Assembly: GCA_042570305.1 (NCBI GenBank)
Contig: JBHPGP010000001.1
Coordinates: 828 to 64,827, forward strand
Direction of reading: 5' to 3'
Origin: Candidatus Omnitrophota bacterium
GTDB taxonomy: Bacteria; Omnitrophota; Gorgyraeia; Gygaellales; JAHJCI01
Length of the DNA: 64,000 bases
Position 1 is the first letter of the stretch; each line of letters opens with the position of its first letter. Positions 4,958 to 26,112 of this stretch are shown one piece after another. The notes beneath the pieces are model-generated. The model did no database searches. It was not told the DNA's origin and saw only the letters and a program-made list of their open reading frames with translations. A program made the position numbers and the translations under genes.

Positions 4958-4959
4958 AT

Positions 4960-5811
4960 TTACACCTCAACCCGGCTTAGTTTCTTGATTAAGATTACTC
5001 CGATTATTTCCGAAGCAACTGCCCACATCAGCAAGCCTTGTCCGAGTTTATCCTGCAGCATTATCTTAAAATTTTCCGGATTAACAAAATAGATAAAAAT
5101 TCCGAAGGCAATGGGCAATAAGCCCATAATTACTCCCTGCAGCCTGCCCTGGACTGTCAATGCTTTTACCCGGTCTTCCAGCTTCTTTTTCTCTCTTATG
5201 GTGGACACCAACTGGCTAAATATCTCGGTCAGGTTTCCTCCCGTCTCCCGGGAAATTCCGATAGCAGTGGTGATTAAATCCAGGTCATCCACAGGCATGC
5301 GTTTCTTAAGATGGGCCAGGCACTCCTCCAGGGCCACTCCCATTTGATTCTCTCTCATTACCAGGGAGAACTCATCGCTAATCGGTGGCGGCAATTCCTC
5401 TGCCAGCACCTCAAAGGACTGGTTTAAACTCATGCCTGCCTTAAGCGAACTGGAAAGAAGCATCAGCCCGTCAACCAGCTGGCTGCTGAATTGATTTCGC
5501 CTGCGCCCAGAAATAGTCCTGATGATTGTCGGCGGTGCGGCCAAACCAAGAAGCAATCCCGCAATAAAACCAATGGGATTGCGCATAAGAATCAGCCCGA
5601 GCAATCCCAGGCTTAATGGTACAATCATAAATATTTGAAATAGCTTGCGTTTCTCCGTGAAGATAAACATCCTGTCCAGCTGTTTGGTTACCTCGTGCAT
5701 GCGTATTTCTTGAATCTGAGAATAACGCTTCAGCAAAAGCGGAATTAGCTTAAAGGCTAAAAATACAACCGAGGCAAAGGTTAATAGAAAAATAATGCTT
5801 TTTAATACCAT
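4960..5811 (-). CDS. tadB: Tad pilus inner-membrane platform protein TadB (T2SS F-family domain)
   Basis: 283 aa. T2SSF-like core (LKAGMSLNQSFEVLAEE...AIGISRETGGNLTEIFSQL) with TM helices at both ends. Confidence 0.85.
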   Translation of the reverse strand: MVLKSIIFLLTFASVVFLAFKLIPLLLKRYSQIQEIRMHEVTKQLDRMFIFTEKRKLFQIFMIVPLSLGLLGLILMRNPIGFIAGLLLGLAAPPTIIRTISGRRRNQFSSQLVDGLMLLSSSLKAGMSLNQSFEVLAEELPPPISDEFSLVMRENQMGVALEECLAHLKKRMPVDDLDLITTAIGISRETGGNLTEIFSQLVSTIREKKKLEDRVKALTVQGRLQGVIMGLLPIAFGIFIYFVNPENFKIMLQDKLGQGLLMWAVASEIIGVILIKKLSRVEV

Positions 5812-6014
5812 TATCTCTCCCAGACTAAAGGTTTATCACCACGGGGCAGCTCGTATTGCCGGCCAAAACCAAAGACATCGGCTGATTGGCGCCAACGGCT
5901 ACATACTGCCCGTTTAATATATATCTGGATTCCCAATAACATAGCAATAACTACTGCTAACAACACAGTATATTCAATAAACGAAATCGCTTTTAAGTGT
6001 TTGCTTTTCATCAT
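5811..6014 (-). CDS. Flp-like pilin/pseudopilin (divergent, A instead of G before the xxxxEY motif)
   Basis: 67 aa. N-terminus MMKSKHLKAISFIEYTVLLAVVIAMLLGIQIYIKRAV shares the IEY + hydrophobic helix + Q.YIKR motif with the upstream pilin array. Confidence 0.6.
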   Translation of the reverse strand: MMKSKHLKAISFIEYTVLLAVVIAMLLGIQIYIKRAVCSRWRQSADVFGFGRQYELPRGDKPLVWER

Positions 6015-6015
6015 C

Positions 6016-8196
6016 TTACCTGTGCCTTTTCTTTATATAAATATCCTTGGTCCTTTTAGCAGCTTCGCCAGGAAGCTCATCGGGTTTATAAGTATACCCC
6101 GGCCCGTAATGAAAGGTTGCCTTGGCAACTATCCCGTGGTTCATGGCCAAATTCACCAATCTGGCCCTTGGCGTATTCGGGTCAGAAGGGTTGCCATACG
6201 CAAGTAATTGCTCCAGCGTTGTTGCGTCTCCGTTATTAAGAAAAGCCATGAATCTGTCGGCAGTAGGCCGCAACAGGTTTGTTACATCTGCGTTTTCAGC
6301 AAGCGCCGCATTACGGCGGAATCTGAATCTCCAGAAATTACTCAACGGGCCACGCTTGGCTAAATCCTCATCATAGCGGGCAACTGTAAGGTCAAATTCC
6401 TCCTCTGCCCATTCTATCCTCTGACAAATCCTGAATCCCCAGTTACGGCGCTTCACTGTAAGATAGGGCAATTTAAAATCTTGCGGCACATCTAATCTAA
6501 CATAAACCATATGCGCGGGGCTTTCTTTCTGTACTGTATTGCTAAACTCGTCCAAAACTACATCCTTCCAAACATAAATAGCCTCGTGAACCCATGGCTC
6601 GTCTTTCCTGCTTGCTGCCTCAAGGGCTACCTCGTTAATCCTTGTGCGAAGGCTCTCAATACTTTCTTGCATTAGTTGAAGGCGCGCGATAAAGGGCGGA
6701 ATGATAGTATTGCGATTACTATCATTGTTACAACCACAGTTATAATAGTTATCGCAAGCTGCCGATGCACAGATGCCGCCACCGGAACAATACCGCCCCA
6801 TGGCGCAATTCTGAATATAGAGAGGGCAAGCGCTGCTGCAACATCCCCTTACACCGCCGGTAGGGGTATTGCAGCTATTCTCAACCAAACAACTCGATGA
6901 ACAAAGCTGACAACAGCCCCTGCCGCCGCCGCAGCCAGCGTAAGCATCACACACGCACCACCATGAATATTCATCGTATTCCACGTGCCCGGCGCAACAA
7001 CCTCCGCCGCCCGGACCGCATGTCCAGGGGCCGGGAGACGAACAGCTGTTTACGCATGCAAGTATCTCGTTTTGCCTTTGCGCTAATTGAGCAATCCAGC
7101 CTTGCAACATTGCTTCCCACTCCAGCATATGGTCATACCAATCCTTGAAGTCATCGGTCGGCGCTTTCAGATCATCAAACTGATTCATCCAAGTCTCAAA
7201 ACTGCCAACGAGATCTTCCTTGCTGGTATTATAAATACCCTTGGCAAATATCTCAAAAAGTCTTATGTCTCTGTAAAACTGGCCCAGTTCGTCATTCTCG
7301 TAGTCGCCATTATCCGGGTCCGCAGGATCAAAGAAAGTCAAATCTTTTGTGTAATCATCCGCAAACTCAACTCCGTAGCCATGGCTCCATAACCGCACAA
7401 TAAAGGATTTAAATTCGCCTGCCAGCCAATCAGTTATTCTCCAGTTTCCATTTACCAACAAATGAACGCTATGAGCATCCCCGGTCTGGGGAACCGGCAC
7501 AATATGAAATTGAGGGCTGCCAAATAGGTATTCATAAAAATCGTCAACGAGGTCTCCTATGCGCGGCAATGAATCCAGTCTCTGGAAATACCAGTGGTTA
7601 AACCGGGAAATCTTATCTAATGTGCCGGGGAATTTATTTCCGTCTCTGTCCGCATCAAATCTATCCGGCACCAAGTCCTGGTCAGTGACCGTAGCAAAAA
7701 GCGCAAATTGAATTGCTGCCTCTGTAAGCCTCTGTTCGGTAGACATATTCTGAAATTTCTCTTTCAATGCCTGAACCAGCTGGGGGTCAATATGGGCTGC
7801 GCTAATACCTTCGGAGACTAAAAACCCGCCCGTAGCCCCTCCCATGACCAGTCCGAGTGCCACCTGGGCAATCAATGGTCCGGTAATTGCGCTTGCGGTA
7901 GCAAGGGTACAAATTGTTACTACGATTGAGGCAATAATTATTAAACATCCTATAATCAATGACCAATTAAACTCGCAAGATTCAATACTATCGCCCCACA
8001 TTTCCATCTGCTGCTTTATCCCTGTAGCCATACTGCCCAGCCCCGAGGCAAGCAAAAGACCTGCTCCGTCACAGGCATTATCAATGGCTGTCTTTTTCTG
8101 GGCTATCTGACCTATATTTATAGTAACCACAATAAACAGGAATATGGCTGCGATGGCTAAAGTGATTATAGTCGCAATCTGCGCCCTTTTTGCCAT
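6016..8196 (-). CDS. TadG-like pilus-associated protein with an internal Cys-rich module
   Basis: 726 aa. The N-terminus (AQIATIITLAIAAIFLFIVVTINIGQIAQKKTAIDNACDGAGLLLAS) resembles the TadE/G-like 'Tad' N-terminal domain. 22 Cys occur within 109 residues, encoded at 6730-7056. Confidence 0.65.
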   Translation of the reverse strand: MAKRAQIATIITLAIAAIFLFIVVTINIGQIAQKKTAIDNACDGAGLLLASGLGSMATGIKQQMEMWGDSIESCEFNWSLIIGCLIIIASIVVTICTLATASAITGPLIAQVALGLVMGGATGGFLVSEGISAAHIDPQLVQALKEKFQNMSTEQRLTEAAIQFALFATVTDQDLVPDRFDADRDGNKFPGTLDKISRFNHWYFQRLDSLPRIGDLVDDFYEYLFGSPQFHIVPVPQTGDAHSVHLLVNGNWRITDWLAGEFKSFIVRLWSHGYGVEFADDYTKDLTFFDPADPDNGDYENDELGQFYRDIRLFEIFAKGIYNTSKEDLVGSFETWMNQFDDLKAPTDDFKDWYDHMLEWEAMLQGWIAQLAQRQNEILACVNSCSSPGPWTCGPGGGGCCAGHVEYDEYSWWCVCDAYAGCGGGRGCCQLCSSSCLVENSCNTPTGGVRGCCSSACPLYIQNCAMGRYCSGGGICASAACDNYYNCGCNNDSNRNTIIPPFIARLQLMQESIESLRTRINEVALEAASRKDEPWVHEAIYVWKDVVLDEFSNTVQKESPAHMVYVRLDVPQDFKLPYLTVKRRNWGFRICQRIEWAEEEFDLTVARYDEDLAKRGPLSNFWRFRFRRNAALAENADVTNLLRPTADRFMAFLNNGDATTLEQLLAYGNPSDPNTPRARLVNLAMNHGIVAKATFHYGPGYTYKPDELPGEAAKRTKDIYIKKRHR

Positions 8197-8450
8197 TATT
8201 CATATCCTCCTTGATGGAAAACATTCAAATCAGGCTGGCGTCTATAACAACTACCGTCTTTGCAATAGAAATTTGATTTACCCGGGTCGTTTTTGCTGGT
8301 TGCAACCTCACGGGTGTCTTCGTACGCCATTTGGCGCTTCACTATATTATGATTAATCCAGACAAACAGGTTGCAGGTCAAGATAAGGAATAATATCGTG
8401 CAAACAAACGCAACGCTAAACTCAATGCTTGCCTGGGCCCTGGAGTTCAT
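8196..8450 (-). CDS. TadE-like minor pilin
   Basis: MNSRAQASIEFSVAFVCTILFLILT... is a TadE-type N-terminus. The ATG at 8448-8450 overlaps the upstream stop (ATGA), so I prefer it to the track start at 8465. Confidence 0.6.
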   Translation of the reverse strand: MNSRAQASIEFSVAFVCTILFLILTCNLFVWINHNIVKRQMAYEDTREVATSKNDPGKSNFYCKDGSCYRRQPDLNVFHQGGYE

Positions 8451-9619
8451 TTTCTTGCCTCCCAAGTAAATTTCTCGTTATCCGGACTGAATTCAGTGGT
8501 GGTATGAACAGGGTCTATTATTAACCCATAAGCAGGGTTAACTCTAGACCAGCCATTGGGTTTATTTAATCTTATTATGTGCGTAGCCCTCTGCCTTGCG
8601 TATACATTGGTGAATGAGGATATCGTACTGTCGTCTTCTGTTTTAGTCAAGTAATTATTCCTATTTTCTTTAACCAGGGTGTAAGCATTAAGCAGGCCCT
8701 GTTGCTCATCGAGCAATTCCCCGTCAAAATCCCGGTCCTTATCGTGCTCCCAGGTGCTAACCGCAAGATATCTATTATCCAGCTCGCCCTCCTGATAATC
8801 TACATATTTAAAACTCTGTATTCTGCCGCAGTAACCATTTGCATCGCAATCCCCGGTTCCCTCCTGAGTGCCCCTCACGGCAATGATCATTTCCTGCTGC
8901 CCGTCATAGTCAAGGTCAGCAGAGGATATTTTATGCTTTGGCTTCCCTGCCCCCTCTCTGAAATAGGCAAATTTTTTGTCAGGTTCTTCATCCGGGCTTG
9001 TGCGGTTTTGCACAAAGATTTGGTTGCAGGCTACCCAGCGCTCTTTAAATTGTTCTAAATCTGCGGCTCTTTCAACAGGAGTTTTTTCAAAAACCACCAT
9101 TATTGAACCACCGCAGACGGATTCGCGGTAATCCGCTGTTGTAAATGCGCCGTGGCTATAATTAATCCCTTCAATTGCCCCATCTGCCAGCTCTCTATCA
9201 GTTAAGCCTAAGGTATCGTTAATCTCGATTATTTGCAGCGGAAGATCAGAATCTACGGGGATTTCGTCATAATCGTCTATATAAAGTGCATTTGTGTTGC
9301 TGTCCCAGGTTACTGCTCCTCCGCCGCTTATTGGCGTGCGGTCAGCAAAACCCCAGGGGTCATTAGGATCGGGTATGCCTTTATCCTTTATGGTTGTCAT
9401 AGAAACGGTTGCGCCGGGTCCGGATTTATAAAAAGCCGTTTTCATTGCCTTGCGGAAAGACTGCATGACAGTATTTTGCTGATAATTTGCATGCATGCCG
9501 TATTGCAAAAGCATAGCCAGGCACAACAGCAGTATTGACCCGAAAGAAGCCAACTCCACCAATGATTGTCCCTTTTTATTATTCAAATAATTCATCCGGA
9601 AACTCCCCAAGCGTTTCAC
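8447..9619 (-). CDS. Large pseudopilin/TadE-TadF-like protein
   Basis: 390 aa. N-terminus ...NNKKGQSLVELASFGSILLLCLAMLL is a pilin-like leader plus hydrophobic helix, followed by a ~340-aa soluble domain. The start is uncertain: an internal Met sits at 9595, and the track start overlaps the upstream gene by 41 nt. Confidence 0.55.
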   Translation of the reverse strand: MKRLGSFRMNYLNNKKGQSLVELASFGSILLLCLAMLLQYGMHANYQQNTVMQSFRKAMKTAFYKSGPGATVSMTTIKDKGIPDPNDPWGFADRTPISGGGAVTWDSNTNALYIDDYDEIPVDSDLPLQIIEINDTLGLTDRELADGAIEGINYSHGAFTTADYRESVCGGSIMVVFEKTPVERAADLEQFKERWVACNQIFVQNRTSPDEEPDKKFAYFREGAGKPKHKISSADLDYDGQQEMIIAVRGTQEGTGDCDANGYCGRIQSFKYVDYQEGELDNRYLAVSTWEHDKDRDFDGELLDEQQGLLNAYTLVKENRNNYLTKTEDDSTISSFTNVYARQRATHIIRLNKPNGWSRVNPAYGLIIDPVHTTTEFSPDNEKFTWEARK

Positions 9620-9932
9620 TGCTTACTCTGCGTAGTCTTTCATTTCCCGTTACAGAGGTTGTTCTGATTCCAAAAATCTTTCCCTCTTCTGCCAGCTGGG
9701 GCGCTGAAACCTCTACCTGCCGCGATATGGTTGTGGTTGTCCCAGACTGAAAAATACTCATTACGGAATTAATATGGCCAGCATCGTATTGCCCGCCTAT
9801 TGTATCAGCCGCCTCTCGCAGCCTTCCCTGTGCGGCTCGCTTTACATAATGCTGCATAAGCAGCAGGGCAGCAGATAAGCAGACCACAAGCATGGTATAT
9901 TCAATAATTGACTGTGCTTTTTTATTTCGCAT
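9579..9932 (-). CDS. Extended Flp-like pilin paralogue
   Basis: MRNKKAQSIIEYTMLVVCLSAALLLMQHYVKRAAQGRL... has a Flp-type xxxxEY N-terminus and the shared MQxYVKRxxQGR motif. Confidence 0.65.
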   Translation of the reverse strand: MRNKKAQSIIEYTMLVVCLSAALLLMQHYVKRAAQGRLREAADTIGGQYDAGHINSVMSIFQSGTTTTISRQVEVSAPQLAEEGKIFGIRTTSVTGNERLRRVSSETLGEFPDELFE

Positions 9933-9934
9933 AT

Positions 9935-10408
9935 TTAATAGCTGTGTTCAGGCGTGTTTGGCCGAGTAACCTGGTCGTATTCCATTTTCTGAAAAGCTTC
10001 ATTATTCCTAATCATAACGCGTGTATTTTCATCAATGCGTGAAAAATGCCTGCCTTTCGTCCAGTTTCTTGTTAAGTTAGTATTGTCGAAATTGCTTAAG
10101 CTCATGGAAGGGATAGGAGGACCAAACTCCTCATCCACATTATCCTCTATGCCTATTTCCTGAATGCGCTGGGCACGAAGCTCACTTTTCCTTGCCGTTA
10201 CTTCCGAGACACTCAATCCCGGTCCAAAAGTCATATTCTCGATATAATCAGGTATAAAGCCAAACATTCCTAAGTTATCCACCGGCTCTTTTATCACTAC
10301 CTGAACCCCGCGCTGGATATAAAGGTTGATTGCCAGCAGCAGGGAGCTAATCACCCCTATAACAATCGCGTATTCAGAAACATTTTGAGCTCTCTTGTTA
10401 CTAATCAT
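9935..10408 (-). CDS. Extended Flp-like pilin paralogue
   Basis: MISNKRAQNVSEYAIVIGVISSLLLAINLYIQRGVQ... with a 157-aa body. Confidence 0.6.
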   Translation of the reverse strand: MISNKRAQNVSEYAIVIGVISSLLLAINLYIQRGVQVVIKEPVDNLGMFGFIPDYIENMTFGPGLSVSEVTARKSELRAQRIQEIGIEDNVDEEFGPPIPSMSLSNFDNTNLTRNWTKGRHFSRIDENTRVMIRNNEAFQKMEYDQVTRPNTPEHSY

Positions 10409-10754
10409 AACAATCTATCTCCTGGATACTGAGGCCGCCCCTGACGCTTTCGCCAGCAAAGTCGTCAAGCGAGCCGGAAAAAGCTATTCGTTGCCGTCCG
10501 TCCGTGTTTACCACAACATCAATTTCTCTGCCCTGTTCGGCTTTGGAATACTCGTGAACATAGTATGGCTCGTACTGGGTTATTGGCCGGGCGGAAGAGG
10601 GAGAGACCTGCCGGGCTGTTCGATCTACTAAATCAGCGTAACGACCCTGCAGGCCTCTCTTGACATATGACTGTATGGTTATCATCGCAAGTATAATTAC
10701 AGCCACGCAAATGGTGTATTCACTAACGCTTTGTCCTCTTCTCGGTATTCTCAT
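10401..10754 (-). CDS. Extended Flp-like pilin paralogue
   Basis: MRIPRRGQSVSEYTICVAVIILAMITIQSYVKRGLQGR... It shares the QYEPYYV motif with the 11126-11500 product. Confidence 0.65.
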   Translation of the reverse strand: MRIPRRGQSVSEYTICVAVIILAMITIQSYVKRGLQGRYADLVDRTARQVSPSSARPITQYEPYYVHEYSKAEQGREIDVVVNTDGRQRIAFSGSLDDFAGESVRGGLSIQEIDCYD

Positions 10755-10787
10755 AATCGCCTTAACAAGGGTTGCTGGTTTAAGCTT

Positions 10788-11105
10788 TTACTTGCTATAC
10801 AAATCCTCGTCCTCTGCCCATGCCTCAACAGATTCTGAGCCTGTTCTTGAGCTTACCTGAGCAGCCGTATGTTCTGTCCTGCCCACGCGGTCATGTACAG
10901 ATTGCTCAACCTCTGACGACTGAGTGATTGAAAAATTGCCCGTATAAACAGTCGGGTCATACTGGTCACCCATATCATCAGAAGCGCTTTTTAATCTGCC
11001 GGCAAAACCGCGTCTTACATAGTGCTGCATAAGCAAAAGACCAGCCACCACCACAGCAATAATTAAGGCATATTCTAATGTACTCTGGCCCTTACGGTTA
11101 AACAT
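10788..11105 (-). CDS. Extended Flp-like pilin paralogue
   Basis: MFNRKGQSTLEYALIIAVVVAGLLLMQHYVRRGFAGRL... A GGAGG Shine-Dalgarno sits upstream. The 5' end is identical to that of 11126-11500. Confidence 0.7.
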   Translation of the reverse strand: MFNRKGQSTLEYALIIAVVVAGLLLMQHYVRRGFAGRLKSASDDMGDQYDPTVYTGNFSITQSSEVEQSVHDRVGRTEHTAAQVSSRTGSESVEAWAEDEDLYSK

Positions 11106-11125
11106 TTCTTTTCACCTCCTCAATA

Positions 11126-11500
11126 TTAGCGGCCCGAATCATAATCGTCTCTGTGATAATCATCATCCCATGTTGTCTCATCATAGGCTCCGACCTGACG
11201 TGTTGTCGACTCGGCAATAGCTGTACGATCCGTTTCACCGCGCGCTGCAATGTCTTCTGTGAGGCTCCTGCTGCTTCCAACAGTACCTTCTGAATCAACG
11301 TAGTATGGCTCGTACTGCTTGGTAGTAAACTCTATATTTGCTCCTCCTAAAACTCCTGGTGTTGGAGCATGGTCAACAGCATCTGCTACTCTACCCTGAA
11401 GACCCCTTTTTACGTAAACCTGCATTGCCACTGCTGCGGCAATTACCAACGCAATAAGTATTGAATACTCCGCAATATTCTGGCCCTTACGGTTAAACAT
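11126..11500 (-). CDS. Extended Flp-like pilin paralogue
   Basis: MFNRKGQNIAEYSILIALVIAAAVAMQVYVKRGLQGRV... with a GGAGG Shine-Dalgarno. Confidence 0.7.
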   Translation of the reverse strand: MFNRKGQNIAEYSILIALVIAAAVAMQVYVKRGLQGRVADAVDHAPTPGVLGGANIEFTTKQYEPYYVDSEGTVGSSRSLTEDIAARGETDRTAIAESTTRQVGAYDETTWDDDYHRDDYDSGR

Positions 11501-11527
11501 TTCTTTTCACCTCCTCATTTAAAGATT

Positions 11528-11698
11528 TCAATCTGGCAACCTGCCAGCTGCGCCTTCAATAGACCCTTTAGATTCCGTGAAGACTGTGTCTACTGCGGTC
11601 GGAAGAAACGTCCTTGCCGCAACGACAACTGCAGCTATAATTGCCGTTAACACAATCACATACTCCAACACGCTCTGGCCCTTTTTTTTCCTGCGCAT
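11528..11698 (-). CDS. flp: Classical short Flp pilin (56 aa), below the ORF-track cutoff
   Basis: Hand translation gives MRRKKKGQSVLEYVIVLTAIIAAVVVAARTFLPTAVDTVFTESKGSIEGAAGRLPD*. ATG is the complement of 11696-11698 and the stop is at 11528-11530. GGAGG lies about 10 nt upstream. It carries the G/xxxxEY Flp processing motif. Confidence 0.75.
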   Translation of the reverse strand: MRRKKKGQSVLEYVIVLTAIIAAVVVAARTFLPTAVDTVFTESKGSIEGAAGRLPD

Positions 11699-11740
11699 AT
11701 CCATTCACCTCCTTTCGCTTTCCGATCTTAATATATATAA

Positions 11741-11887
11741 TTATTGCGGCTCAGCATTAATCTGGTCCTGAATCAGTTTAAAATTCGCCTGCACTGCTCG
11801 CTGTACATAGAGATGCATGGCCAGGAATGCCGCTGCCACAATAGTAATTAGTAATGCGTATTCAATTGTGCTCTGCGCTCTTCTCAT
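11741..11887 (-). CDS. Short Flp-like pilin (48 aa), below the ORF-track cutoff
   Basis: Hand translation gives MRRAQSTIEYALLITIVAAAFLAMHLYVQRAVQANFKLIQDQINAEPQ*. Its ATG overlaps the stop of the upstream gene (ATGA at 11884-11887). Confidence 0.65.
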   Translation of the reverse strand: MRRAQSTIEYALLITIVAAAFLAMHLYVQRAVQANFKLIQDQINAEPQ

Positions 11888-12090
11888 CTTAGCATATCGT
11901 CGACTGCTTGGTCAAAGGCATCATTGCAAATCTCTTTTATGCCCGGACGCTCACCGGGTCCGGGATTCGGATTGGTAAAGAATTTGCTTTTAGTAAAAAA
12001 CAAAACGATTGCCACTACGGAAATCGTTAATATACAATACTCGAATATTGACTGACCATGAATACTTTTATTAATCTTTTTAAAAGTCAT
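11884..12090 (-). CDS. Flp-like pilin, first gene of the pilin array
   Basis: MTFKKINKSIHGQSIFEYCILTISVVAIVLFF... has a G-QSxxEY motif. GGGAG lies upstream of the ATG. Confidence 0.6.
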   Translation of the reverse strand: MTFKKINKSIHGQSIFEYCILTISVVAIVLFFTKSKFFTNPNPGPGERPGIKEICNDAFDQAVDDMLR

Positions 12091-13276: not shown

Positions 13277-13618
13277 TTATATAATAGTGATAATATCGCC
13301 TATTTTGGTTTGGCTTGATTTGAGCATTCCTTCAGGAAGCTCTATAGTCAAACTTGCGTTAAAATAGATGGGGCTGACCCTGAAAGGCTTTAATGAAGGA
13401 AGAACAGCAATTACCCTGCCTTTATTGTCCAGGAAGATAGCATCTATAGCAAAACGCATAAACAGCGTGTGAATAGAGTTTGAGGGCTTAAGAACCAGGG
13501 CTTCCCCTGTTTCCAGGGACTGGCGATTAAGCAATCCAACCAGCCTCCCCCAAAATGTATGCGCAATCTTTACCCTATCAGCAAGAATGGCATTATTTCT
13601 TAAATTAGTAATCTTCAT
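13277..13618 (-). CDS. DUF192 family protein
   Basis: 113 aa. ADRVKIAHTFWGRLVGLLNR...NSIHTLFMRFAIDAIFLDNKGRVI matches the DUF192 pattern as I remember it. Confidence 0.65.
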   Translation of the reverse strand: MKITNLRNNAILADRVKIAHTFWGRLVGLLNRQSLETGEALVLKPSNSIHTLFMRFAIDAIFLDNKGRVIAVLPSLKPFRVSPIYFNASLTIELPEGMLKSSQTKIGDIITII

Positions 13619-17507: not shown

Positions 17508-19679
17508 TTAGGATTTTTTCTCAAATATCTCTTTTGACAGGGGGATGCCGCGGCTTTGTATCTCGTCAAAAAAGGTAGGCAACGTTCCGGTTGGGCGGAA
17601 TTCACCTTTGATATTGCCCTGCTCGTCAACAGAAACCTGATGAAAGGAAAAGATATCCTGTAATCCGATGTGTAATTCATCAAGCATCCCGGTAACCTCG
17701 GTTATTTGCAAAATCTTTCTTGAGCCATCCGAGAGTCGCGCTGTATGCACAATAATATCGATGGCTGAAGCAATCATCTCACGAATAGCGCGTATTGGTA
17801 TCTCTATGCCGCTCATCAGAATTAAGGAATCCAGGCGCGCTAAGACATCGTGGGTGGAATTGGCATGGATGGTGGTCATTGAGCCGTCGTGGCCCGTATT
17901 CATTGCCTGAAGCATATCCAGGCTTTCCGGCCCCCGGCATTCTCCAATAATAATCCGGTCTGGCCGCATACGCAAGGAATTGCGGAATAAATCGCGTACC
18001 GTTATAGCACCCTTGCCTTCAATGTTGGGAGGCCGCGACTCAAGCCTTACCCAATGCTGATGATGAAGTTTTAATTCTGCAGCGTCCTCAATAGTAAGTA
18101 CGCGCTCGCCCTGTGAAACATATTCAGAAAGTACGTTTAAAACCGTAGTTTTACCCGAACCGGTTCCCCCTGAAACGATTATATTCTTGCGCCCTAAAAC
18201 ACAAGCCCTCAAGAATTCAGACATTACATTATCAAGTGCGTTTAATCTTGTCAAATCCGCGATTTTAAGCCTCTCTCGTCCAAACTTACGGATAGTCAGA
18301 GTGGGGCCGGTAAGGGAAAGCGGAGGGATAATCGCATTAACCCGCGAACCATCGCTGAGTCGCGCATCCACCATCGGCACTGATTCATCTATTCTCCTTC
18401 CCAACGGCGCAATAATTCTCTCAATAATCTGGCGCACCTGCTCATTAGAAACGAACCGCTTAGAAGCCAACTCCAGCCTGCCGAACCTCTCCACGTAAAT
18501 CTGACTTTTGTTGTTAACCATAATATCGGTGATCTCCGCATCGTCAATCAGATCCTCCAATGGGCCAAAGCCCAGGGCTTCGTCGGTTATTTCTTTTACC
18601 AGGCGCTCGCGCTCCTCTCGGGTAGAAATTAATGTTCCTGCCTCCTGACTCAGTGCGTTATTTACTGACTTTATTGTCCTCTGCCGTAAATTTTCAATCT
18701 TTGTCTCATCTCCCGCAAAGCGGTCTAGCCTGCGCAAATCCAGCTCTTGAATAATCCGGCGGTGAACCCGTTTTTTCAATTCATCCATTCTTTCCTCGCG
18801 GCTTATATGCTTGGCAACCGCGGTGACTTCGCCCAGATGAACGGACTCCATAGGCGTGGGCAGGTTTTCTTCCGGCTTCTTAGGATGTGCGGAAAAGATT
18901 GTCTCCAGCTCCTGGTGGGAAATAAAAAAATCAGGGTGCTCCAGCAAATCTGCCGCTAATTTAATCAGTGTAGTGCTCACCCGGGAACGGGCGCTATCTA
19001 ATACTACGGGAACACGACGGTTCAAGGCAGAGCCAACAATCCTGCCCTCAGAGGGAATACGGGCGATTATGTCGCAAGGCAGAGCCATACTTACTTCCCG
19101 CCAGGTCACTGCTCCTTGAGATTCCGCGCGATTCAATATTGCCTTCATCATTCTCAGGGGAAGTAAATAAACTGACTGCAATATTTCGATTGCTTCTTTG
19201 GCCTGATAAACTGAAAGCACATCCGGGTTAACCACTATCAGGATTAGATTTGTCTGTTCAAACAGGGTAATCTGGAGTTTGCCAAAACTGCGGCCGGAAT
19301 CAACAACAATAAATTCATAATCCTTGCTGAGGTCTTTTAAAACCTGTGAGATGAATTGATAATCTATTAATGGCGCTTCCCTAGGGTTTAAAATAACAGA
19401 AAGCAGGTCAATCTTGCCTTTTGGATAATGGCAAATACAATTACGCAACTCGGAAGCAGCGTATTTGCCCTTCTTCCACTCGGAAGCCAAATTTACCAGC
19501 GCCTTATCTGATTTTAAATTAAGCATCCGCGCCATATCTCCGGGCAGATGCAGATCGATATCCAAAAGCAAGACCTTTTTATCTTTTAGTTTTTTTGCCA
19601 GGCAAACAGCGAGGTTAGTGGCAATAAGCGTTCTGCCAACACCGCCCTTTGTGCTGAAAACAGATATAGTCTGAGCCAT
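17508..19679 (-). CDS. cpaF: Fusion of a TadZ/CpaE-like ParA/MinD-type domain with the TadA/CpaF secretion ATPase
   Basis: 723 aa. The N-terminal ~255 aa read ISVFSTKGGVGRTLIATNLA...LLLDIDL...IVVDSG, a deviant Walker A with R in place of K as in CpaE/TadZ. The C-terminal part reads VSGGTGSGKTTVLN...IIIGECRGPESLDMLQAMNTGHDGSMTTIHANS, the T2SS-E/CpaF core. Confidence 0.85.
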   Translation of the reverse strand: MAQTISVFSTKGGVGRTLIATNLAVCLAKKLKDKKVLLLDIDLHLPGDMARMLNLKSDKALVNLASEWKKGKYAASELRNCICHYPKGKIDLLSVILNPREAPLIDYQFISQVLKDLSKDYEFIVVDSGRSFGKLQITLFEQTNLILIVVNPDVLSVYQAKEAIEILQSVYLLPLRMMKAILNRAESQGAVTWREVSMALPCDIIARIPSEGRIVGSALNRRVPVVLDSARSRVSTTLIKLAADLLEHPDFFISHQELETIFSAHPKKPEENLPTPMESVHLGEVTAVAKHISREERMDELKKRVHRRIIQELDLRRLDRFAGDETKIENLRQRTIKSVNNALSQEAGTLISTREERERLVKEITDEALGFGPLEDLIDDAEITDIMVNNKSQIYVERFGRLELASKRFVSNEQVRQIIERIIAPLGRRIDESVPMVDARLSDGSRVNAIIPPLSLTGPTLTIRKFGRERLKIADLTRLNALDNVMSEFLRACVLGRKNIIVSGGTGSGKTTVLNVLSEYVSQGERVLTIEDAAELKLHHQHWVRLESRPPNIEGKGAITVRDLFRNSLRMRPDRIIIGECRGPESLDMLQAMNTGHDGSMTTIHANSTHDVLARLDSLILMSGIEIPIRAIREMIASAIDIIVHTARLSDGSRKILQITEVTGMLDELHIGLQDIFSFHQVSVDEQGNIKGEFRPTGTLPTFFDEIQSRGIPLSKEIFEKKS

Positions 19680-19681
19680 AT

Positions 19682-21316
19682 TTAGTCTATGCTATAGGTA
19701 ATCGGTATATTTATCCAAAGTTCATTTTCTTCAATTTCCGGGGAAAAGGCAGGAAAGGGAGCAATGCTTTTTATCATCCCAATTGCACTCTCATCAAGCA
19801 CCCCCCAGCCTGATGATTGGCCGATTTTGACCTCGAGAAGTTCGCCTGTTGAGGCAAGATGCAGTGATAATACGACTGACCCCTCCAGGTTTTTTTCATG
19901 CGCCTCTTGGGGATAGACAAAATTATCTTGTATGAGTCTGACTACCTTTCTGGTATAGCTGGTTACTACCGGCTTTCTTATATCAGGATATGACTCTGCT
20001 GACTTTGTAAAGATATCCTTTTGCGAGCTGCCTTCTAAACCTGCCCGCATAGGAAATGCTTCGCTAATATTAAGAATGGTTGGCGTAAGCGTAATTATCA
20101 ATTCAGTATCGCCCAGTTCACCCCGTCCGCCTCCGGCTTTAGTCTTTTTGCCTCTAAAGAACACCCCCAGCAGAGGAATATCTCCCAAGAAAGGAATCTT
20201 GCTTATTGTCTCCTCATCCTTCTGTTTAATCAGACCGCTTATTGCTAACGTCTGGCCATTGTCCAGCAATAGCTGTGTCGAAGTATTGCGCTTAATCAAC
20301 GGATAAGCCAGGGCCGTAATTACGGTGGTTGAGCTGGTGGCTGATGACTCCTCTGAGCCAAGCGTCTCTGCCTCCGTAATCTCGCTAACCTCCACATTCA
20401 AGGCAACCTGGATTCGGTTCTCTGGCATAATCTTTGGCCTTATCTTTAACTTGATCCCGTACTCCTTATATGATACTTCTGTTCCCTCTTCTCCCTGCGT
20501 GCCAAATGCTGTGGTCAAAATCGGCTTCTCCCCTCCCACCAACAGCTCTGCTTCCTTGCCGCTCTGACATACTAGGCGAGGCCGAGAGAGCGTCCTGGCC
20601 TTACCTTCCTCAACCAAATAATCTAATGTAGCTACGAGATCCTGCCTTGTCCACTTCATAAGATGGAATAAGGCATCGGGCAAATCACTTAACTTAGCTC
20701 CATACCTGCCTGCGGGCTCAGCAAGCGCAATAACTCCTTGATGACTAAAGCCCAGGTCTTTTGTTGCGTCTTTGCTGACCTCTAAAATCTGTACCTCGAT
20801 TTCAATACTTGCTGTTTCTTCTTCTATTTTTATCAGATTAACGGTTTTGTCTTTAAGCGGGCCCAATGCGGTATCAATACGCCCCAAATCATCGGCAATA
20901 CTTGTCTTTCCTAAAAGCAAGATTTTTCCTTCGCTATCAGCCCGACGGGTATAAACACCGGGCAAATCTAACTCCTTAAGCAATCTATCAACGCGCTGCT
21001 GAACCGCCTCCATATCTTCAAGGAAAACCTGCAATTGTAACGCGTGCTGACCAAGGTCGTCCCACCAGATAAGGCTAGTCGTTCCCTGCCTCTTAGCCAT
21101 AATCACCATCTCAACCTTGGTGCTTGAAGTAACATCGGCAACATCAGGGTTGTTTATCGCTATCCTTGTGGGATTAGAAACATTAAAAACCTTAATCTCT
21201 CCCACATATAAAGTAATCAACTCTCCTTCTTTATAATCCGGCTGAGCGAAGCAAAAGCCATGGCAGGCGAGAACAATAAGCAATAGTAAAAATAAAATTC
21301 TGTCGATATTTCTCAT
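19682..21316 (-). CDS. cpaC: CpaC/RcpA-type secretin with a C-terminal TonB-C-like domain
   Basis: 544 aa with a signal peptide. It has a pilus N-terminal (BON-like) segment and a secretin core (LSRPRLVCQSGKEAELLVGGE...IPFLGDIPLLGVFFR). The last ~91 aa (19682-19957) read YPQEAHEKNLEGSVVLSLHLASTGELLEVKIGQSSGWGVLDESAIGMIKSIAPFPAF, the TonB_C pattern. Confidence 0.8.
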   Translation of the reverse strand: MRNIDRILFLLLLIVLACHGFCFAQPDYKEGELITLYVGEIKVFNVSNPTRIAINNPDVADVTSSTKVEMVIMAKRQGTTSLIWWDDLGQHALQLQVFLEDMEAVQQRVDRLLKELDLPGVYTRRADSEGKILLLGKTSIADDLGRIDTALGPLKDKTVNLIKIEEETASIEIEVQILEVSKDATKDLGFSHQGVIALAEPAGRYGAKLSDLPDALFHLMKWTRQDLVATLDYLVEEGKARTLSRPRLVCQSGKEAELLVGGEKPILTTAFGTQGEEGTEVSYKEYGIKLKIRPKIMPENRIQVALNVEVSEITEAETLGSEESSATSSTTVITALAYPLIKRNTSTQLLLDNGQTLAISGLIKQKDEETISKIPFLGDIPLLGVFFRGKKTKAGGGRGELGDTELIITLTPTILNISEAFPMRAGLEGSSQKDIFTKSAESYPDIRKPVVTSYTRKVVRLIQDNFVYPQEAHEKNLEGSVVLSLHLASTGELLEVKIGQSSGWGVLDESAIGMIKSIAPFPAFSPEIEENELWINIPITYSID

Positions 21317-22257
21317 TTTTCTTCTTCGGATAATGGCATAAAGCCTCTTTCCAATCCGCGATATACTTCAATCATTGTCTGTGGTCCTGTCGCGCGAGGC
21401 TCTGCTTTCCTGACAGGACGCGTAGGATATAGATATCGAAACAACGCATCCCAATCTGCTGTTTCAACCGGCTCTATACCAACATCATCCGATGAACGAA
21501 TAACCAATTTAATCTTTCCCTGTTCCTGGACAAAAGAAAGCAGAATGGATTCCTGTGGCGCCAGGGCAAGAGTAGCGGTGCGCATGCCAACACCTGACTT
21601 CCTCGACTTATCTTGCGTATCCTCCTGGCCGAAACTGGAAGTGGTATAAAATTCGCTGCCAACTGCCAATACCTCAACCCCTTGAAAAAGCGACACCAAG
21701 CGAGGCTTCTGACTATCCTCACCTAATCCCCCCACCCCAGAAGGCGGCGTGAGCAATGCCAGGACATCAACAAAATCTCCGGGCTTAAGCAAGCCGGATA
21801 CAGTAGAAGCACTGTCTACCGTAACAGTTACTGCCCTTTTGCCTTCGGGAGTAATCTCGGATAATGTTTTTCCTATTCTGCCTGGGGGTAGCAATTTTGT
21901 TTTAAGTATCTGTTCTCCCGCGGCAATTGGCGTAGATGAAATTTGACCGATCACTGCATCAAGAGAAGTAATCGCTCCTGGCTGGATATATTTAACCGGC
22001 ATCTCCTTGATTACGAGGTCCTCGGGGGTGACCGGAGTCTGCGGAGCAATATTAGTCGCTGCCAGCAGCACTATCCCGGTTCTCTCCGGCTGCGCCTGAA
22101 CAGCCGGCTGCATTTTTTTCTGGATCTCTTTTACCCTCGCCCACATTTCAGCTTCCCTGCGGCGCAGGTAAACATTAAGCAACAATATAGCTATAATTCC
22201 GCAGACTACAGCAATAATTAACGGAGACTTTTCACGTAATTTTTCCTTCAGCTGCAT
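21313..22257 (-). CDS. cpaB: Flp pilus assembly protein CpaB/RcpC
   Basis: 314 aa with an N-terminal TM helix. SAF-like segment ITPEDLVIKEMPVKYIQPGAITSLDAVIGQ...AGEQIL and RcpC-like segment KRAVTVTVD...LKPGDFVDVLA. Confidence 0.8.
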   Translation of the reverse strand: MQLKEKLREKSPLIIAVVCGIIAILLLNVYLRRREAEMWARVKEIQKKMQPAVQAQPERTGIVLLAATNIAPQTPVTPEDLVIKEMPVKYIQPGAITSLDAVIGQISSTPIAAGEQILKTKLLPPGRIGKTLSEITPEGKRAVTVTVDSASTVSGLLKPGDFVDVLALLTPPSGVGGLGEDSQKPRLVSLFQGVEVLAVGSEFYTTSSFGQEDTQDKSRKSGVGMRTATLALAPQESILLSFVQEQGKIKLVIRSSDDVGIEPVETADWDALFRYLYPTRPVRKAEPRATGPQTMIEVYRGLERGFMPLSEEEK

Positions 22258-23169
22258 CTATTTTATTCTTTCTTCATATACTACAATTTGGGCGCCTTCC
22301 ATCAGCTGGCTGCTTAACTCCTGTAGCTTCTGCTGCTGCTTCAGGAACAAAACATTCCTTTTGATTTCGTCCCATACCTCGGATAGCGACTTTGCTTGAC
22401 CGCCCCTGACCAGCTCAACCTTGACAATATAATATCCGCGCTTATCCTTAAACACATTGCTTATCTGTCCGGCTCCCAGGGCAGGAGAAAAAACTACTTC
22501 ATCAAATCTGAGAAAATCATTTCCGCGCTGGCCCTTTTTTATAAATCCCAGGCTCCCCCCGGAAGAGGCGTTTTCTGACTGCGAGCGTTCCCGAGCCAAT
22601 TGACCAAAATCTGCACCCTTTAACAATTCAATTAAAGTTTCCTTCGCACCGGCCTCATTGTCAAGAACAATCTCCCTCACCTGCCTCTCTTCCGTCTGGC
22701 GATATTGCTCCTTATAAAGATTATAAAAATCTTCGACCTCTGAAGAGGTAACCAGTATATTTTCTGTCTTTTGCTGCAGTAACTGGTTAGCTAAAACATT
22801 AATCTCTAGGTTCCTTAAGAGTTCCTGATTCTTGGGCAGTTTATCCAAGCCTTGCTTTTTCGCCTCTTGATAAAAAAGATAGCTTCTGACCAGCTCTTCG
22901 TTCAAATAAGCCAATTTCTCTTCGCGGGCAGTAATCTGGGCTTCGGGGCTGCCTACCAACTCATTATAGCCCTGAATTGCCTGCTCTAAATATTCTAAGG
23001 TAATTGGCATGCCGTTAACCTTGGCAATAATCGTTCCCTCAACCGGCATGAATTTCTCTTTAGAAACCAATTTAGAGACAAACGGCAACTGGGCAAGCTT
23101 CTCGCATCCCGCTAATGATAAGGCTGCCGTTGCGCAAAGAACTAAAGCCAAAATTGCCTTTTTATTCAT
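22258..23169 (-). CDS. Parvulin-type peptidyl-prolyl isomerase lipoprotein (PrsA/SurA-like)
   Basis: A PpiC rotamase region is present (VREIVLDNEAGAKE...GGSLGFIKKGQ...RGYYIVKVE). The lipobox LSLAGC follows MNKKAILALVL. The ATG at 23169 with AGGAGG 8 nt upstream is preferred to the track start at 23214. Confidence 0.75.
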   Translation of the reverse strand: MNKKAILALVLCATAALSLAGCEKLAQLPFVSKLVSKEKFMPVEGTIIAKVNGMPITLEYLEQAIQGYNELVGSPEAQITAREEKLAYLNEELVRSYLFYQEAKKQGLDKLPKNQELLRNLEINVLANQLLQQKTENILVTSSEVEDFYNLYKEQYRQTEERQVREIVLDNEAGAKETLIELLKGADFGQLARERSQSENASSGGSLGFIKKGQRGNDFLRFDEVVFSPALGAGQISNVFKDKRGYYIVKVELVRGGQAKSLSEVWDEIKRNVLFLKQQQKLQELSSQLMEGAQIVVYEERIK

Positions 23170-23206
23170 GTGTTTTCCTCCTGTTTTATTCTTTTCTTTT
23201 AAACAT

Positions 23207-23234
23207 ATTATCACAAATAAAAAAATGAAGTCAA
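23207..23234 (-). promoter_or_regulatory. Sigma70-type promoter (extended -10) for the PPIase-cpaB-cpaC... operon
   Basis: On the minus strand, TTGACT (23229-23234), a 16-nt spacer, then TGtGATAAT (-10 at 23207-23212). Confidence 0.55.
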
Positions 23235-24607: not shown

Positions 24608-24609
24608 AG

Positions 24610-26109: not shown

Positions 26110-26112
26110 AAT

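What the first reader, a model, noticed from the sequence alone, without database searches (positions are those of the whole stretch)
19682..19957. Tad secretin carrying a C-terminal TonB-C-like domain
The CpaC/RcpA-type secretin ends with about 91 extra residues: YTRKVVRLIQDNFVYPQEAHEKNLEGSVVLSLHLASTGELLEVKIGQSSGWGVLDESAIGMIKSIAPFPAFSPEIEENELWINIPITYSID. This matches the TonB_C signature (YP..A...EG.V.......G....v.i..SSG...LD..A........F.P). I am not aware of TonB-C domains fused to Tad secretins. The domain could anchor the secretin to peptidoglycan or to a partner beta-barrel, or replace a missing pilotin or TadD.
Basis: partly seen in the sequence, partly recalled or inferred. Interest (0 to 1): 0.65.

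Follow-up and report, generated by a model that had tools for sequence, protein, structure and literature searches.

The report
Tad pilus secretin fused to TonB domain
The outer-membrane pore protein of an adhesion-pilus (Tad) machine in an uncultured Omnitrophota bacterium really does end in a TonB-type binding domain on a flexible tether. The fusion is conserved in every related Omnitrophota Tad locus examined and appears undescribed, and it probably acts as a built-in anchor or assembly aid.

Summary
Confirmed. Window 19682-21316 (- strand) is one uninterrupted 544-aa gene with these parts:
- signal peptide
- Tad-type N-domain (PF13629)
- secretin core (PF00263)
- about 32 aa of disordered linker
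- a 96-aa TonB C-terminal domain (PF03544, 53-58 bits against a cut-off of 24.6; TIGR01352). The model is confident here (pLDDT 93-97) and superposes on solved TonB domains.

It is not a frameshift or a one-off.
- More than 800 database homologues exist, and all 120 shown in each of two searches carry the same architecture.
- All 62 related loci from species-representative genomes carry it too. They are labelled Omnitrophota or are ENA bins with placeholder names.
- Some variants carry two tandem TonB domains.
- The domain is under selection (48% mean identity). The linker is not (14%), varies from 11 to 158 aa and is K/E/A/P-rich, like TonB's own spacer.

The conserved operon is PPIase lipoprotein, RcpC, secretin-TonB_C, then a TadZ-TadA fusion. 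It has no TadD or CpaD pilotin. In Pseudomonas RcpA the C-terminal tip is the pilotin-binding site.

Most likely the domain is a passive periplasmic tether. It would capture a partner strand, or possibly peptidoglycan, to help assemble or anchor the secretin. It is not an energy transducer. The partner is unknown. NCBI labels these proteins "TonB family protein", and I found no paper describing the fusion. This is a new variant of a known kind, of moderate interest.

The parts
19682..21316 (-). Whole gene: Tad (CpaC/RcpA-type) secretin with a C-terminal TonB_C domain, 544 aa
   Evidence: Single ORF. Pfam PF13629+PF00263+PF03544. Identical protein P0001 is in NCBI as 'TonB family protein [Candidatus Omnitrophota bacterium]'.
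21245..21316 (-). Signal peptide (about aa 1-24, MRNIDRILFLLLLIVLACHGFCFA)
   Evidence: Read from the sequence. AF2 predicts a helix at 4-18 followed by a low-confidence segment at 20-27. A lipobox-like motif occurs in only 6 of 102 homologues, so the protein is not generally a lipoprotein.
21026..21217 (-). N0 domain, 'pilus formation protein N-terminal region' (aa 34-97), the hallmark of Tad secretins
   Evidence: PF13629, 50 bits against a cut-off of 23. All-beta with pLDDT above 90.
20822..21019 (-). Second periplasmic alpha/beta (N1-like) domain, aa 100-165
   Evidence: AF2 secondary structure H103-116, E121-138, H141-157, E158-164, with pLDDT 93-96.
20069..20809 (-). Secretin beta-barrel core, aa 170-416 (Pfam match 234-415)
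   Evidence: PF00263, 130 bits. Best solved relatives are 8jvb/9wfd (A. caldus) and 8odn RcpA.
19973..20068 (-). Flexible linker, aa 417-448
   Evidence: pLDDT below 50 at 419-447. In 102 homologues its length is 11-158 aa, mean pairwise identity is 14%, and its composition is K 16%, E 14%, A 14%, P 12%.
19685..19972 (-). TonB C-terminal domain (aa 449-544): helix, short helix with the YP motif, two strands, helix, strand
   Evidence: PF03544 58 bits and TIGR01352 54.5 bits. pLDDT 93-97. Foldseek matches to 5lw8 (rmsd 2.8 A, TM 0.69), 9dc4_T (rmsd 1.9 A, TM 0.73) and 7zc8 FusB. Invariant or nearly invariant residues are Y454, Y468, P469, A472, G479, G491, S501-S502-G503, D508, P522, F524, P538 and Y541.
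21313..22257 (-). RcpC/CpaB alignment-complex protein, overlapping the secretin start by 4 nt
   Evidence: PF16976, 80.5 bits, plus SAF. Directly upstream of the secretin in 55 related loci.
22258..23214 (-). PpiC/SurA_N-like PPIase lipoprotein (probable true start at MNKKAIL, about 23169; lipobox LAGC)
   Evidence: Rotamase_2, Rotamase and SurA_N hits. First gene of the conserved module in 52 loci. A lipobox is detected in 38 of 52 homologues by one motif and in 41 by a slightly broader one.
17508..19679 (-). TadZ/CpaE-like ParA domain fused to the TadA/CpaF ATPase, starting 2 nt after the secretin stop
   Evidence: AAA_31, CbiA and ParA at 3-188 plus T2SSE at 369-648. Conserved as about 720 aa in 54 loci.
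8196..12090 (-). Array of Flp-type pilin and TadE-like pseudopilin genes
   Evidence: Nine or more ORFs with the N-terminal G/A-Q-S-x-x-E-Y/F motif followed by a hydrophobic helix. The pilin cluster is found in 33 loci.
4094..5811 (-). TadB and TadC platform proteins
   Evidence: PF00482 T2SSF, 65 and 55 bits.

Best explanation
The gene encodes the outer-membrane secretin of a Tad (Flp) pilus machine. A TonB-type C-terminal domain has been grafted onto its C-terminus through a flexible, TonB-like K/E/A/P-rich spacer. That C-terminus lies in the periplasm, on the outside of the barrel. A 13-14-mer ring, by analogy with RcpA, would therefore carry 13-14 tethered TonB domains under the outer membrane. 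I propose that each domain does what solved TonB, HasB and TolA C-terminal domains do: it captures an exposed beta-strand (a 'TonB-box'-like peptide) of another envelope protein by strand addition. Used passively, this would hold the secretin to an envelope partner and help it assemble or stay in place. It would take over the job done in classical Tad systems by the TadD pilotin, which binds the secretin's C-terminal tip. It cannot be an energy transducer, because it has no inner-membrane anchor and no ExbB/ExbD partner nearby. Shown: the architecture, the fold, conservation across all related loci found, absence of TadD/CpaD from the conserved locus, and the operon context. Inferred: periplasmic location, ring stoichiometry, strand-capture binding, the existence of a partner, and the assembly or anchoring role.
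For: - Architecture and fold.
- One conserved gene, not an artefact: all 120 listed hits; 62 of 62 related loci with the domain; independent gene calls.
- Selection acts on the domain but not the linker: mean identity is 48% for the domain, 14% for the linker and 53-63% for the other domains.
- The linker's length (11-158 aa) and K/E/A/P composition resemble a periplasmic spacer.
- The nearest non-Omnitrophota Tad secretin (L063, a proteobacterial MAG) stops 4 residues after the shared ...TLTPTIVEN motif and has no domain.
- No TPR/TadD, CpaD, ExbB, ExbD or TonB-dependent receptor was found by Pfam among the 49 ORFs scanned, i.e. nearly all ORFs of at least 150 aa in the window. None appears in the precomputed Pfam of three other loci.
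- No second TonB_C-containing ORF was found in about 0.93 Mb of related loci or in the window.
- Strand capture of a TonB box is the established activity of TonB C-terminal domains. This rests on my knowledge of the BtuB-, FhuA- and FoxA-TonB complexes, and 9dc4 TbpA-TonB is among the fold matches.
Against: - No partner was identified. Nothing in the conserved locus carries a convincing TonB box.
- The 'GTVVAKVN' motif of the neighbouring lipoprotein is simply the first strand of the SurA_N fold.
- That lipoprotein mostly has D, E or Q at position +2, which in E. coli would mean inner-membrane retention. It is therefore not an obvious outer-membrane pilotin.
- Four related loci carry a small secreted TPR protein and still keep the TonB domain, so the domain and TPR proteins are not strictly alternatives.
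- A TadD encoded elsewhere in the genome cannot be excluded from a 64-kb window.
- Variants with two tandem domains, and unrelated proteins with 2-7 tandem TonB_C repeats, suggest multivalent binding to a polymer such as peptidoglycan rather than to one peptide.
- There are no experimental data for any member.
Confidence: 0.4

Rival explanations
1. Peptidoglycan anchor. The tethered TonB domains bind the cell wall and fix the secretin ring against the pulling force of pilus retraction. PilQ AMIN domains and the TsaP LysM ring play this role for type IVa pili, and ordinary Tad secretins lack such a module.
For: - The spacer is long, flexible and variable in length, which would let the domain reach the wall.
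- Multivalency is typical of wall-binding modules: 13-14 copies per ring, variants with two tandem domains, and unrelated secreted proteins with 2-7 tandem TonB_C domains.
- No AMIN, LysM, OmpA or other wall-binding domain is present in the secretin or its neighbours.
- The Tad field notes that no peptidoglycan-related factor is known for Tad machines (PMC12307814).
- In vitro peptidoglycan binding by E. coli TonB has been reported. This is from my own recollection of Kaserer et al. 2008 and was not checked here.
Against: - Peptidoglycan binding is not an established general property of TonB_C domains. All solved complexes show peptide strand capture.
- The conserved residues are the ordinary TonB_C fold determinants, with no added wall-binding signature.
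Confidence: 0.25
2. Intra-machine clamp. The domain binds another part of the same Tad apparatus and stabilises the ring or the trans-periplasmic conduit. Candidates are a neighbouring secretin subunit, the N0 domain, the RcpC ring or the co-encoded PPIase lipoprotein. The S-domain of type II secretins staples adjacent subunits in a comparable way.
For: - Operon coupling of PPIase lipoprotein, RcpC, secretin and TadZ-TadA is strict in more than 50 loci.
- RcpC-RcpA contacts in Pseudomonas are themselves made by beta-strand addition (PMC12307814), so strand-exchange interfaces are already used in this machine.
- The C-terminal position matches that of S-domains.
Against: - The linker is unconserved (14% identity) and ranges from 11 to 158 aa. 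That is hard to reconcile with a fixed intra-complex geometry.
- No conserved peptide motif was found in the linker or in the lipoprotein tether.
- The monomer model gives no information about contacts (pTM 0.48).
Confidence: 0.15
3. Functional link to a Ton/Tol-type system. The secretin's TonB domains would engage TonB boxes of TonB-dependent transporters, or compete with the cell's own TonB. This would co-localise or regulate transport, or couple the secretin to a proton-motive-force-driven motor.
For: The domain is a full-scoring TonB_C with the YP and SSG motifs. TonB_C domains are used in non-transport machines such as Myxococcus GltG/GltJ (bioRxiv 10.1101/2020.07.22.216333).
Against: - The protein has no N-terminal membrane anchor.
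- No ExbB, ExbD or TonB-dependent receptor was found in the 64-kb window or in the other loci inspected.
- No further TonB_C protein was found in about 0.93 Mb of related loci.
- A domain fixed to the outer membrane cannot transmit inner-membrane energy.
Confidence: 0.05
4. Artefact: a frameshift, misassembly or read-through joins a secretin gene to a separate downstream TonB-like gene.
For: None found.
Against: The frame is continuous. The architecture is identical in hundreds of independently assembled homologues and in 62 species-representative genomes. The next gene starts 2 nt after the stop codon.
Confidence: 0.01

Closest known systems
RcpA / CpaC Tad secretins (for example P. aeruginosa RcpA, PDB 8ODN; PMC10499894)
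   Same: Shares the PF13629 N-domain and the PF00263 secretin core. Profile E-value to 8odn is 6.5e-40. It sits in an operon with rcpC/cpaB, tadZ, tadA, tadB, tadC and Flp pilins.
   Different: RcpA ends a few residues after the last barrel strand, and its last four residues dock into the TadD lipoprotein pilotin. Here that tip is replaced by a 30-160 aa spacer plus one or two TonB_C domains. No TadD or CpaD is encoded in the conserved locus.
TonB energy transducers (C-terminal domains of H. pylori TonB 5LW8/6SLY, Neisseria TonB in 9DC4, FusB 7ZC8, HasB 2M2K)
   Same: Shares the C-terminal domain by sequence (PF03544, TIGR01352) and predicted fold (rmsd 1.9-2.8 A). It is preceded by a charged, proline-containing flexible spacer.
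   Different: It has no N-terminal transmembrane helix and no ExbB/ExbD context. It is attached to an outer-membrane channel, so the polarity of the tether is reversed. The NCBI name 'TonB family protein' is therefore misleading.
Secretin accessory modules: the S-domain with its pilotin (GspD-PulS/AspS, InvG-InvH), and the AMIN domains of PilQ or the TsaP LysM ring
   Same: An extra module on a secretin that serves targeting, ring stabilisation or wall anchoring. Like the S-domain, it is C-terminal.
   Different: The fold is different (TonB_C rather than a helical S-domain, AMIN or LysM). It sits on a long disordered tether. Its ligand is unknown.
TonB_C domains in other non-transport contexts: Myxococcus gliding proteins GltG/GltJ and BlaR1-like M56-TonB_C proteins
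   Same: The TonB_C domain is used as a portable periplasmic binding module outside classical iron or vitamin uptake.
   Different: Those proteins are anchored in the inner membrane. This one is anchored in the outer membrane through a secretin.

Membership tests
Tad secretin (RcpA/CpaC, KEGG K02280) | N-terminal 'pilus formation protein N-terminal region' domain (PF13629) | tested here: met
   50 bits against a cut-off of 23, residues 34-97.
Tad secretin (RcpA/CpaC, KEGG K02280) | Secretin core domain (PF00263) most similar to solved Tad-type secretins | tested here: met
   130 bits. Family profile against PDB gives 8jvb at 1.8e-50 and 8odn RcpA at 6.5e-40. Foldseek confirms.
Tad secretin (RcpA/CpaC, KEGG K02280) | Encoded in a tad/cpa locus with RcpC/CpaB, TadZ, TadA, TadB, TadC and Flp pilins | tested here: met
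   The same order is seen in more than 50 related loci.
Tad secretin (RcpA/CpaC, KEGG K02280) | Free C-terminal tip that binds a TadD (TPR lipoprotein) pilotin encoded in the locus | tested here: not met
   The C-terminus continues into the linker and TonB_C. No TPR/TadD or CpaD family hit appears in the window or in the other loci. A TadD elsewhere in the genome is not excluded.
Tad secretin (RcpA/CpaC, KEGG K02280) | Forms a 13-14-mer outer-membrane ring | not testable with these tools
   Only monomer prediction is available.
TonB family energy transducer | C-terminal TonB domain (PF03544 / TIGR01352) with the corresponding fold | tested here: met
TonB family energy transducer | Extended proline- and charge-rich periplasmic spacer | tested here: inconclusive
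   The linker is disordered, 11-158 aa long and K/E/A/P-rich. It has no regular (EP)n/(KP)n repeat.
TonB family energy transducer | N-terminal inner-membrane anchor that couples to ExbB/ExbD | tested here: not met
   The N-terminus is a cleavable signal peptide followed by secretin domains.
TonB family energy transducer | ExbB/ExbD and TonB-dependent receptors in the genome or neighbourhood | tested here: not met
   None among the 49 ORFs scanned, i.e. nearly all ORFs of at least 150 aa in the 64-kb window, nor in three other loci. The rest of the genome was not available.
TonB family energy transducer | Binds a TonB box by beta-strand addition | not testable with these tools
   No multimer modelling or binding assay is available.
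Secretin S-domain / pilotin-binding domain | C-terminal helical S-domain recognised by a small outer-membrane lipoprotein | tested here: not met
   The C-terminal module has a TonB_C alpha/beta fold. The only conserved neighbouring lipoprotein is a PPIase, mostly with D, E or Q at position +2.
Peptidoglycan-binding secretin modules (AMIN, LysM, OmpA-like, SPOR) | Presence of one of these domains | tested here: not met
   No such Pfam hit in the secretin or its neighbours.

The most novel reading that the evidence does not exclude
A 'reverse TonB'. Throughout the Omnitrophota, whose members include ultra-small, host-dependent bacteria, the Tad secretin has dispensed with a pilotin. It instead carries 13-28 outer-membrane-tethered TonB domains. 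These would capture TonB-box-like strands on a partner reaching up from the inner membrane or the cell wall, linking the outer-membrane pore mechanically to the rest of the envelope during pilus extension and retraction. This would establish TonB_C as a general, portable strand-capture module for building trans-envelope machines, independent of energy transduction.
Probability: 0.12. Interest if true: 0.8.

Novelty: new variant of a known kind. Interest (0 to 1): 0.5.

Why it matters
How secretins are targeted, assembled and anchored is a central question for type II and III secretion, type IV pili and Tad pili. For Tad systems the only known solution is the TadD pilotin binding the secretin's C-terminal tip.

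Every related Omnitrophota Tad locus recovered here has put a TonB-type domain at that position and shows no pilotin in the locus. This offers a natural experiment on pilotin-independent secretin assembly or anchoring. It is also a clear case of a TonB domain working outside energy transduction.

The phylum is thought to use Tad pili for attachment to, or predation on, host cells (PMC10066038). The feature may therefore be tied to that lifestyle.

There is a practical consequence too. These proteins are auto-annotated as 'TonB family protein'. That can make genome surveys miscount both TonB systems and Tad secretins. A 2026 Omnitrophota preprint, for example, lists two 'TonB-domain' genes among the genes flanking giant-protein loci. 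Those genes were not examined here.

Tried and rejected
- Exact-sequence contig look-up of the window protein found nothing on record. Context therefore came from homologues and the genome scan.
- Eight literature searches found no description of the fusion. They combined Omnitrophota, secretin, TonB, CpaC, TonB_C, Tad, TonB-like and Velamenicoccus. The Omnitrophota Tad paper does not mention TonB.
- The genome scan used one narrow peptide pattern, ELxITLTP[TK]I. It shows that the fusion is universal in this lineage but cannot show that it is absent from other phyla.
- About a dozen hits carry ENA placeholder names such as 'uncultured Planctomycetales'. I treat these as unresolved taxonomy, although they share the same synteny.
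- The representative-library search with the domain alone was half filled by unrelated multi-repeat TonB_C proteins, so it did not delimit the family. It did reveal the two-domain secretin variants.
- The cluster look-up gave almost no taxonomy for those variants.
- I considered the neighbouring PPIase lipoprotein as a pilotin with a TonB box ('GTVVAKVN'). I rejected this because the motif is the first strand of the SurA_N fold, and position +2 is mostly D, E or Q.
- I considered the secretin being a lipoprotein. The lipobox-like motif is not conserved (6 of 102).
- I looked for a conserved 'self TonB box' in the linker. There is none (14% identity).
- I looked for further TonB_C proteins near the Tad loci. 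There are none.
- Complex modelling of the domain with candidate partners was not possible, because only monomers of window or database sequences can be submitted and no contact output is returned.
Full report
**1. The observation**

Window 19682-21316 on the minus strand is a single 544-codon ORF with an ATG start and a TAA stop. It overlaps the upstream rcpC gene by 4 nt. The next gene starts 2 nt after its stop codon.

Pfam places three domains in the protein:
- the Tad-specific N-domain PF13629 at residues 34-97 (50 bits)
- the secretin core PF00263 at 234-415 (130 bits)
- TonB_C PF03544 at 465-542 (53.5 bits against a cut-off of 24.6)

On their own they score 58 bits (E 1.2e-15). NCBIfam TIGR01352 (tonB_Cterm) agrees, at 49.7-54.5 bits against a cut-off of 27.1.

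By sequence, the nearest solved chains to the tail are the Helicobacter pylori TonB C-terminal domains 6sly and 5lw8.

An AlphaFold2 model built on 102 homologues has a mean pLDDT of 81.
- The N-domains are confident, as is most of the barrel. Parts of the barrel (about residues 180-240 and 320-340) fall to pLDDT 51-70.
- Residues 419-447 are disordered (pLDDT below 50).
- Residues 449-544 form a very confident alpha-alpha-beta-beta-alpha-beta domain (pLDDT 93-97).

Foldseek matches the body of the model to secretins (9wfd/8jvb and 8odn RcpA). It matches the tail to TonB domains: 5lw8 at rmsd 2.8 A, 9dc4 chain T at rmsd 1.9 A, and FusB 7zc8.

The addition is about 128 residues (linker plus domain), not 91.

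**2. Not an artefact, and not unique**

The identical protein is in NCBI as "TonB family protein [Candidatus Omnitrophota bacterium]". Two homologue searches returned 682 hits (E at most 1e-3) and 829 hits (E at most 1e-20). All 120 hits listed in each search carry PF13629, PF00263 and PF03544 together, at 44-73% identity to the window protein in the first search.

A scan of one genome per GTDB species gave 64 loci.
- 62 of them cover both the secretin end and the TonB domain. They are labelled Omnitrophota, Omnitrophica, or ENA placeholder names such as "uncultured Planctomycetales".
- The two proteobacterial hits match the secretin part only. One of them, L063, ends four residues after the shared TLTPTIVEN motif.

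Independent gene calls on three other contigs show the same single gene.

The scan used one narrow peptide pattern. It therefore establishes universality in this lineage, not absence elsewhere.

**3. Anatomy across the family**

Mean pairwise identity by region:

| Region | Mean identity |
|---|---|
| N0 domain | 53% |
| N1 domain | 55% |
| Barrel | 63% |
| TonB domain | 48% |
| Linker | 14% |

The invariant or nearly invariant residues of the domain are the classical TonB_C determinants: the YP motif, G479, G491, SSG, D508, P-x-F-P, P538 and Y541.

The linker ranges from 11 to 158 residues. It is made mostly of K, E, A and P, which resembles the periplasm-spanning spacer of TonB or TolA.

Searching the 50%-identity representative library with the domain alone found many further secretin fusions. 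It also found variants with two tandem TonB_C domains (for example P0125, P0132 and P0138, up to 1091 aa). One of these, P0132, lies in the same conserved synteny. The same search shows that TonB_C occurs widely as a repeated periplasmic module. Examples are secreted proteins with 2-7 copies and BlaR1-like M56 proteins with 3-4 copies.

**4. Context**

The window is chromosomal and lies near the replication origin, judging by dnaA, dnaN, gyrB, gyrA, parAB and yidC.

The Tad locus is entirely on the minus strand. In order of transcription it contains:
- a PpiC/SurA_N-like PPIase lipoprotein
- RcpC
- the secretin-TonB_C
- a TadZ-TadA fusion
- a secreted GH3 plus PIG-L protein
- DUF192
- an HTH-like protein
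- nine or more Flp-type pilins and pseudopilins
- a Cys-rich TadG-like protein
- TadB and TadC

Clustering ORFs from 64 related loci shows that the core module is conserved in 52-55 loci. That module is PPIase lipoprotein, RcpC, secretin-TonB_C and TadZ-TadA, usually followed by DUF192.

No TadD (TPR lipoprotein), CpaD, ExbB, ExbD or TonB-dependent receptor was detected among the 49 ORFs scanned, which are nearly all ORFs of at least 150 aa in the window. None appears in the three loci that have precomputed Pfam. A profile of the domain finds no second TonB_C protein in about 0.93 Mb of related loci.

**5. Mechanism**

In P. aeruginosa the last four residues of RcpA insert into the groove of the TadD lipoprotein pilotin. 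Without that contact the secretin does not assemble (PMC10499894). Secretin C-termini in general are where pilotin-binding S-domains sit.

In this family that position is occupied by a flexible spacer and a TonB domain, and the locus has no pilotin. The established activity of TonB, HasB and TolA C-terminal domains is capture of an exposed peptide by beta-strand addition.

My best explanation (confidence about 0.4) is therefore that the ring carries 13-14 tethered strand-capture modules. Used passively, they would bind an envelope partner and so assist assembly or anchoring in place of TadD. The domain cannot transduce energy, because the protein has no inner-membrane anchor and no ExbBD.

The main rival (about 0.25) is anchoring to peptidoglycan. 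The multivalency, the tandem-domain variants and the lack of any wall-binding module in Tad machines favour it. Peptidoglycan binding by TonB domains, however, is weakly established.

A third possibility (about 0.15) is an intra-machine clamp onto RcpC, a neighbouring subunit or the co-encoded lipoprotein. The unconserved, highly variable linker argues against a fixed geometry.

A functional link to Ton systems is unlikely (about 0.05). An artefact is excluded.

The partner was not identified. The apparent TonB-box-like motif in the PPIase lipoprotein is just the first strand of the SurA_N fold.

**6. Comparison and novelty**

The protein is a member of the Tad secretin family on every feature tested except the TadD-binding tip. 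It is not a TonB-family energy transducer, despite its NCBI name.

Analogous accessory modules exist on other secretins, namely S-domains, AMIN domains and the TsaP LysM ring. TonB_C is also used outside transport, in GltG/GltJ.

I found no description of a secretin-TonB_C fusion in eight literature searches. The main paper on Omnitrophota Tad systems discusses RcpA phylogeny without mentioning it. A 2026 preprint lists "TonB-domain" genes among the flanks of giant-protein loci, and notes a Tad cassette at another such locus, without comment.

I rate this a new variant of a known kind. It is real, conserved in every related locus recovered, and easily testable. It is already present, though mislabelled, in databases, and its function is unproven. 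Interest: 0.5.

Noticed in passing
window 17508-19679 (-): The TadZ/CpaE-like ParA/MinD domain (residues 3-188) is fused to the TadA/CpaF ATPase (T2SSE, 369-648) in one 723-aa protein. In model Tad systems these are separate genes. The fusion is conserved at about 720 aa in 54 related loci.
   Followed up: partly
window 22258-23214 (-): A PpiC/SurA_N-like PPIase lipoprotein (lipobox LAGC; position +2 mostly D, E or Q in homologues) is the first gene of the conserved Tad module in 52 loci, directly upstream of rcpC. It may be a dedicated folding factor for the secretin.
   Followed up: partly
window 13628 to about 17490 (-): A roughly 1300-aa secreted protein with a GH3 (NagZ-like) domain and two PIG-L deacetylase domains lies inside the Tad locus. 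It is found at this position in 7 related loci. It could remodel the cell's own or the host's cell wall, and no peptidoglycan enzyme is known for Tad machines. The listed TTG start overlaps the ATPase gene and is probably too far upstream.
   Followed up: no
window 5811-12090 (-): An unusually large set of Flp-type pilin and TadE-like pseudopilin genes: at least 9 ORFs of 48-390 aa with the G/A-Q-S-x-x-E-Y motif. There is also a 726-aa Cys-rich TadG-like protein at 6016-8196.
   Followed up: no
window 3949-4042 (-) and 1 to about 3886 (-): A c-di-GMP-I riboswitch (Rfam RF01051, 41.8 bits against a gathering score of 35) sits just downstream of tadC. It lies upstream of an ORF of at least 1295 codons that runs off the window start, which is why the ORF tool does not list it.
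   Followed up: partly
window 23405-27039 (+): A FIST-domain protein, a GAF histidine kinase and a response regulator with a GGDEF diguanylate cyclase domain flank the Tad locus divergently. They are conserved there in 17-19 related loci. Together with the riboswitch, this suggests c-di-GMP control of the locus or of the giant gene.
   Followed up: no
P0125, P0132, P0133, P0137, P0138, P0145; L049 45-1163; L067 10001-12394: Variants of the same secretin carry two tandem TonB_C domains and reach 1091 aa. L067 has the same PPIase, RcpC, secretin, TadZ-TadA and DUF192 synteny.
   Followed up: partly
P0121, P0130, P0128, P0174 (representative-library hits): Proteins made of 2-7 tandem TonB_C domains behind a signal peptide, and BlaR1-like M56 proteins with 3-4 TonB_C domains. 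TonB_C is evidently a widely reused periplasmic module without a TonB anchor.
   Followed up: no
L003, L007, L011, L012 (cluster c20, for example L011 13636-14187): A small secreted TPR protein of about 183 aa (signal peptide, no lipobox) follows the GH3 gene in four related loci that still keep the TonB_C fusion. It may be a TadD-like factor in a subclade. It is absent from this window.
   Followed up: no
window 13277-13618 (-) and 12288-13169 (-): A DUF192 protein (in 37 loci) and an uncharacterised protein with an N-terminal HTH-like region (in 42 loci, usually about 520 aa but 293 aa here) are conserved parts of the Omnitrophota Tad locus. Their roles are unknown.
   Followed up: no
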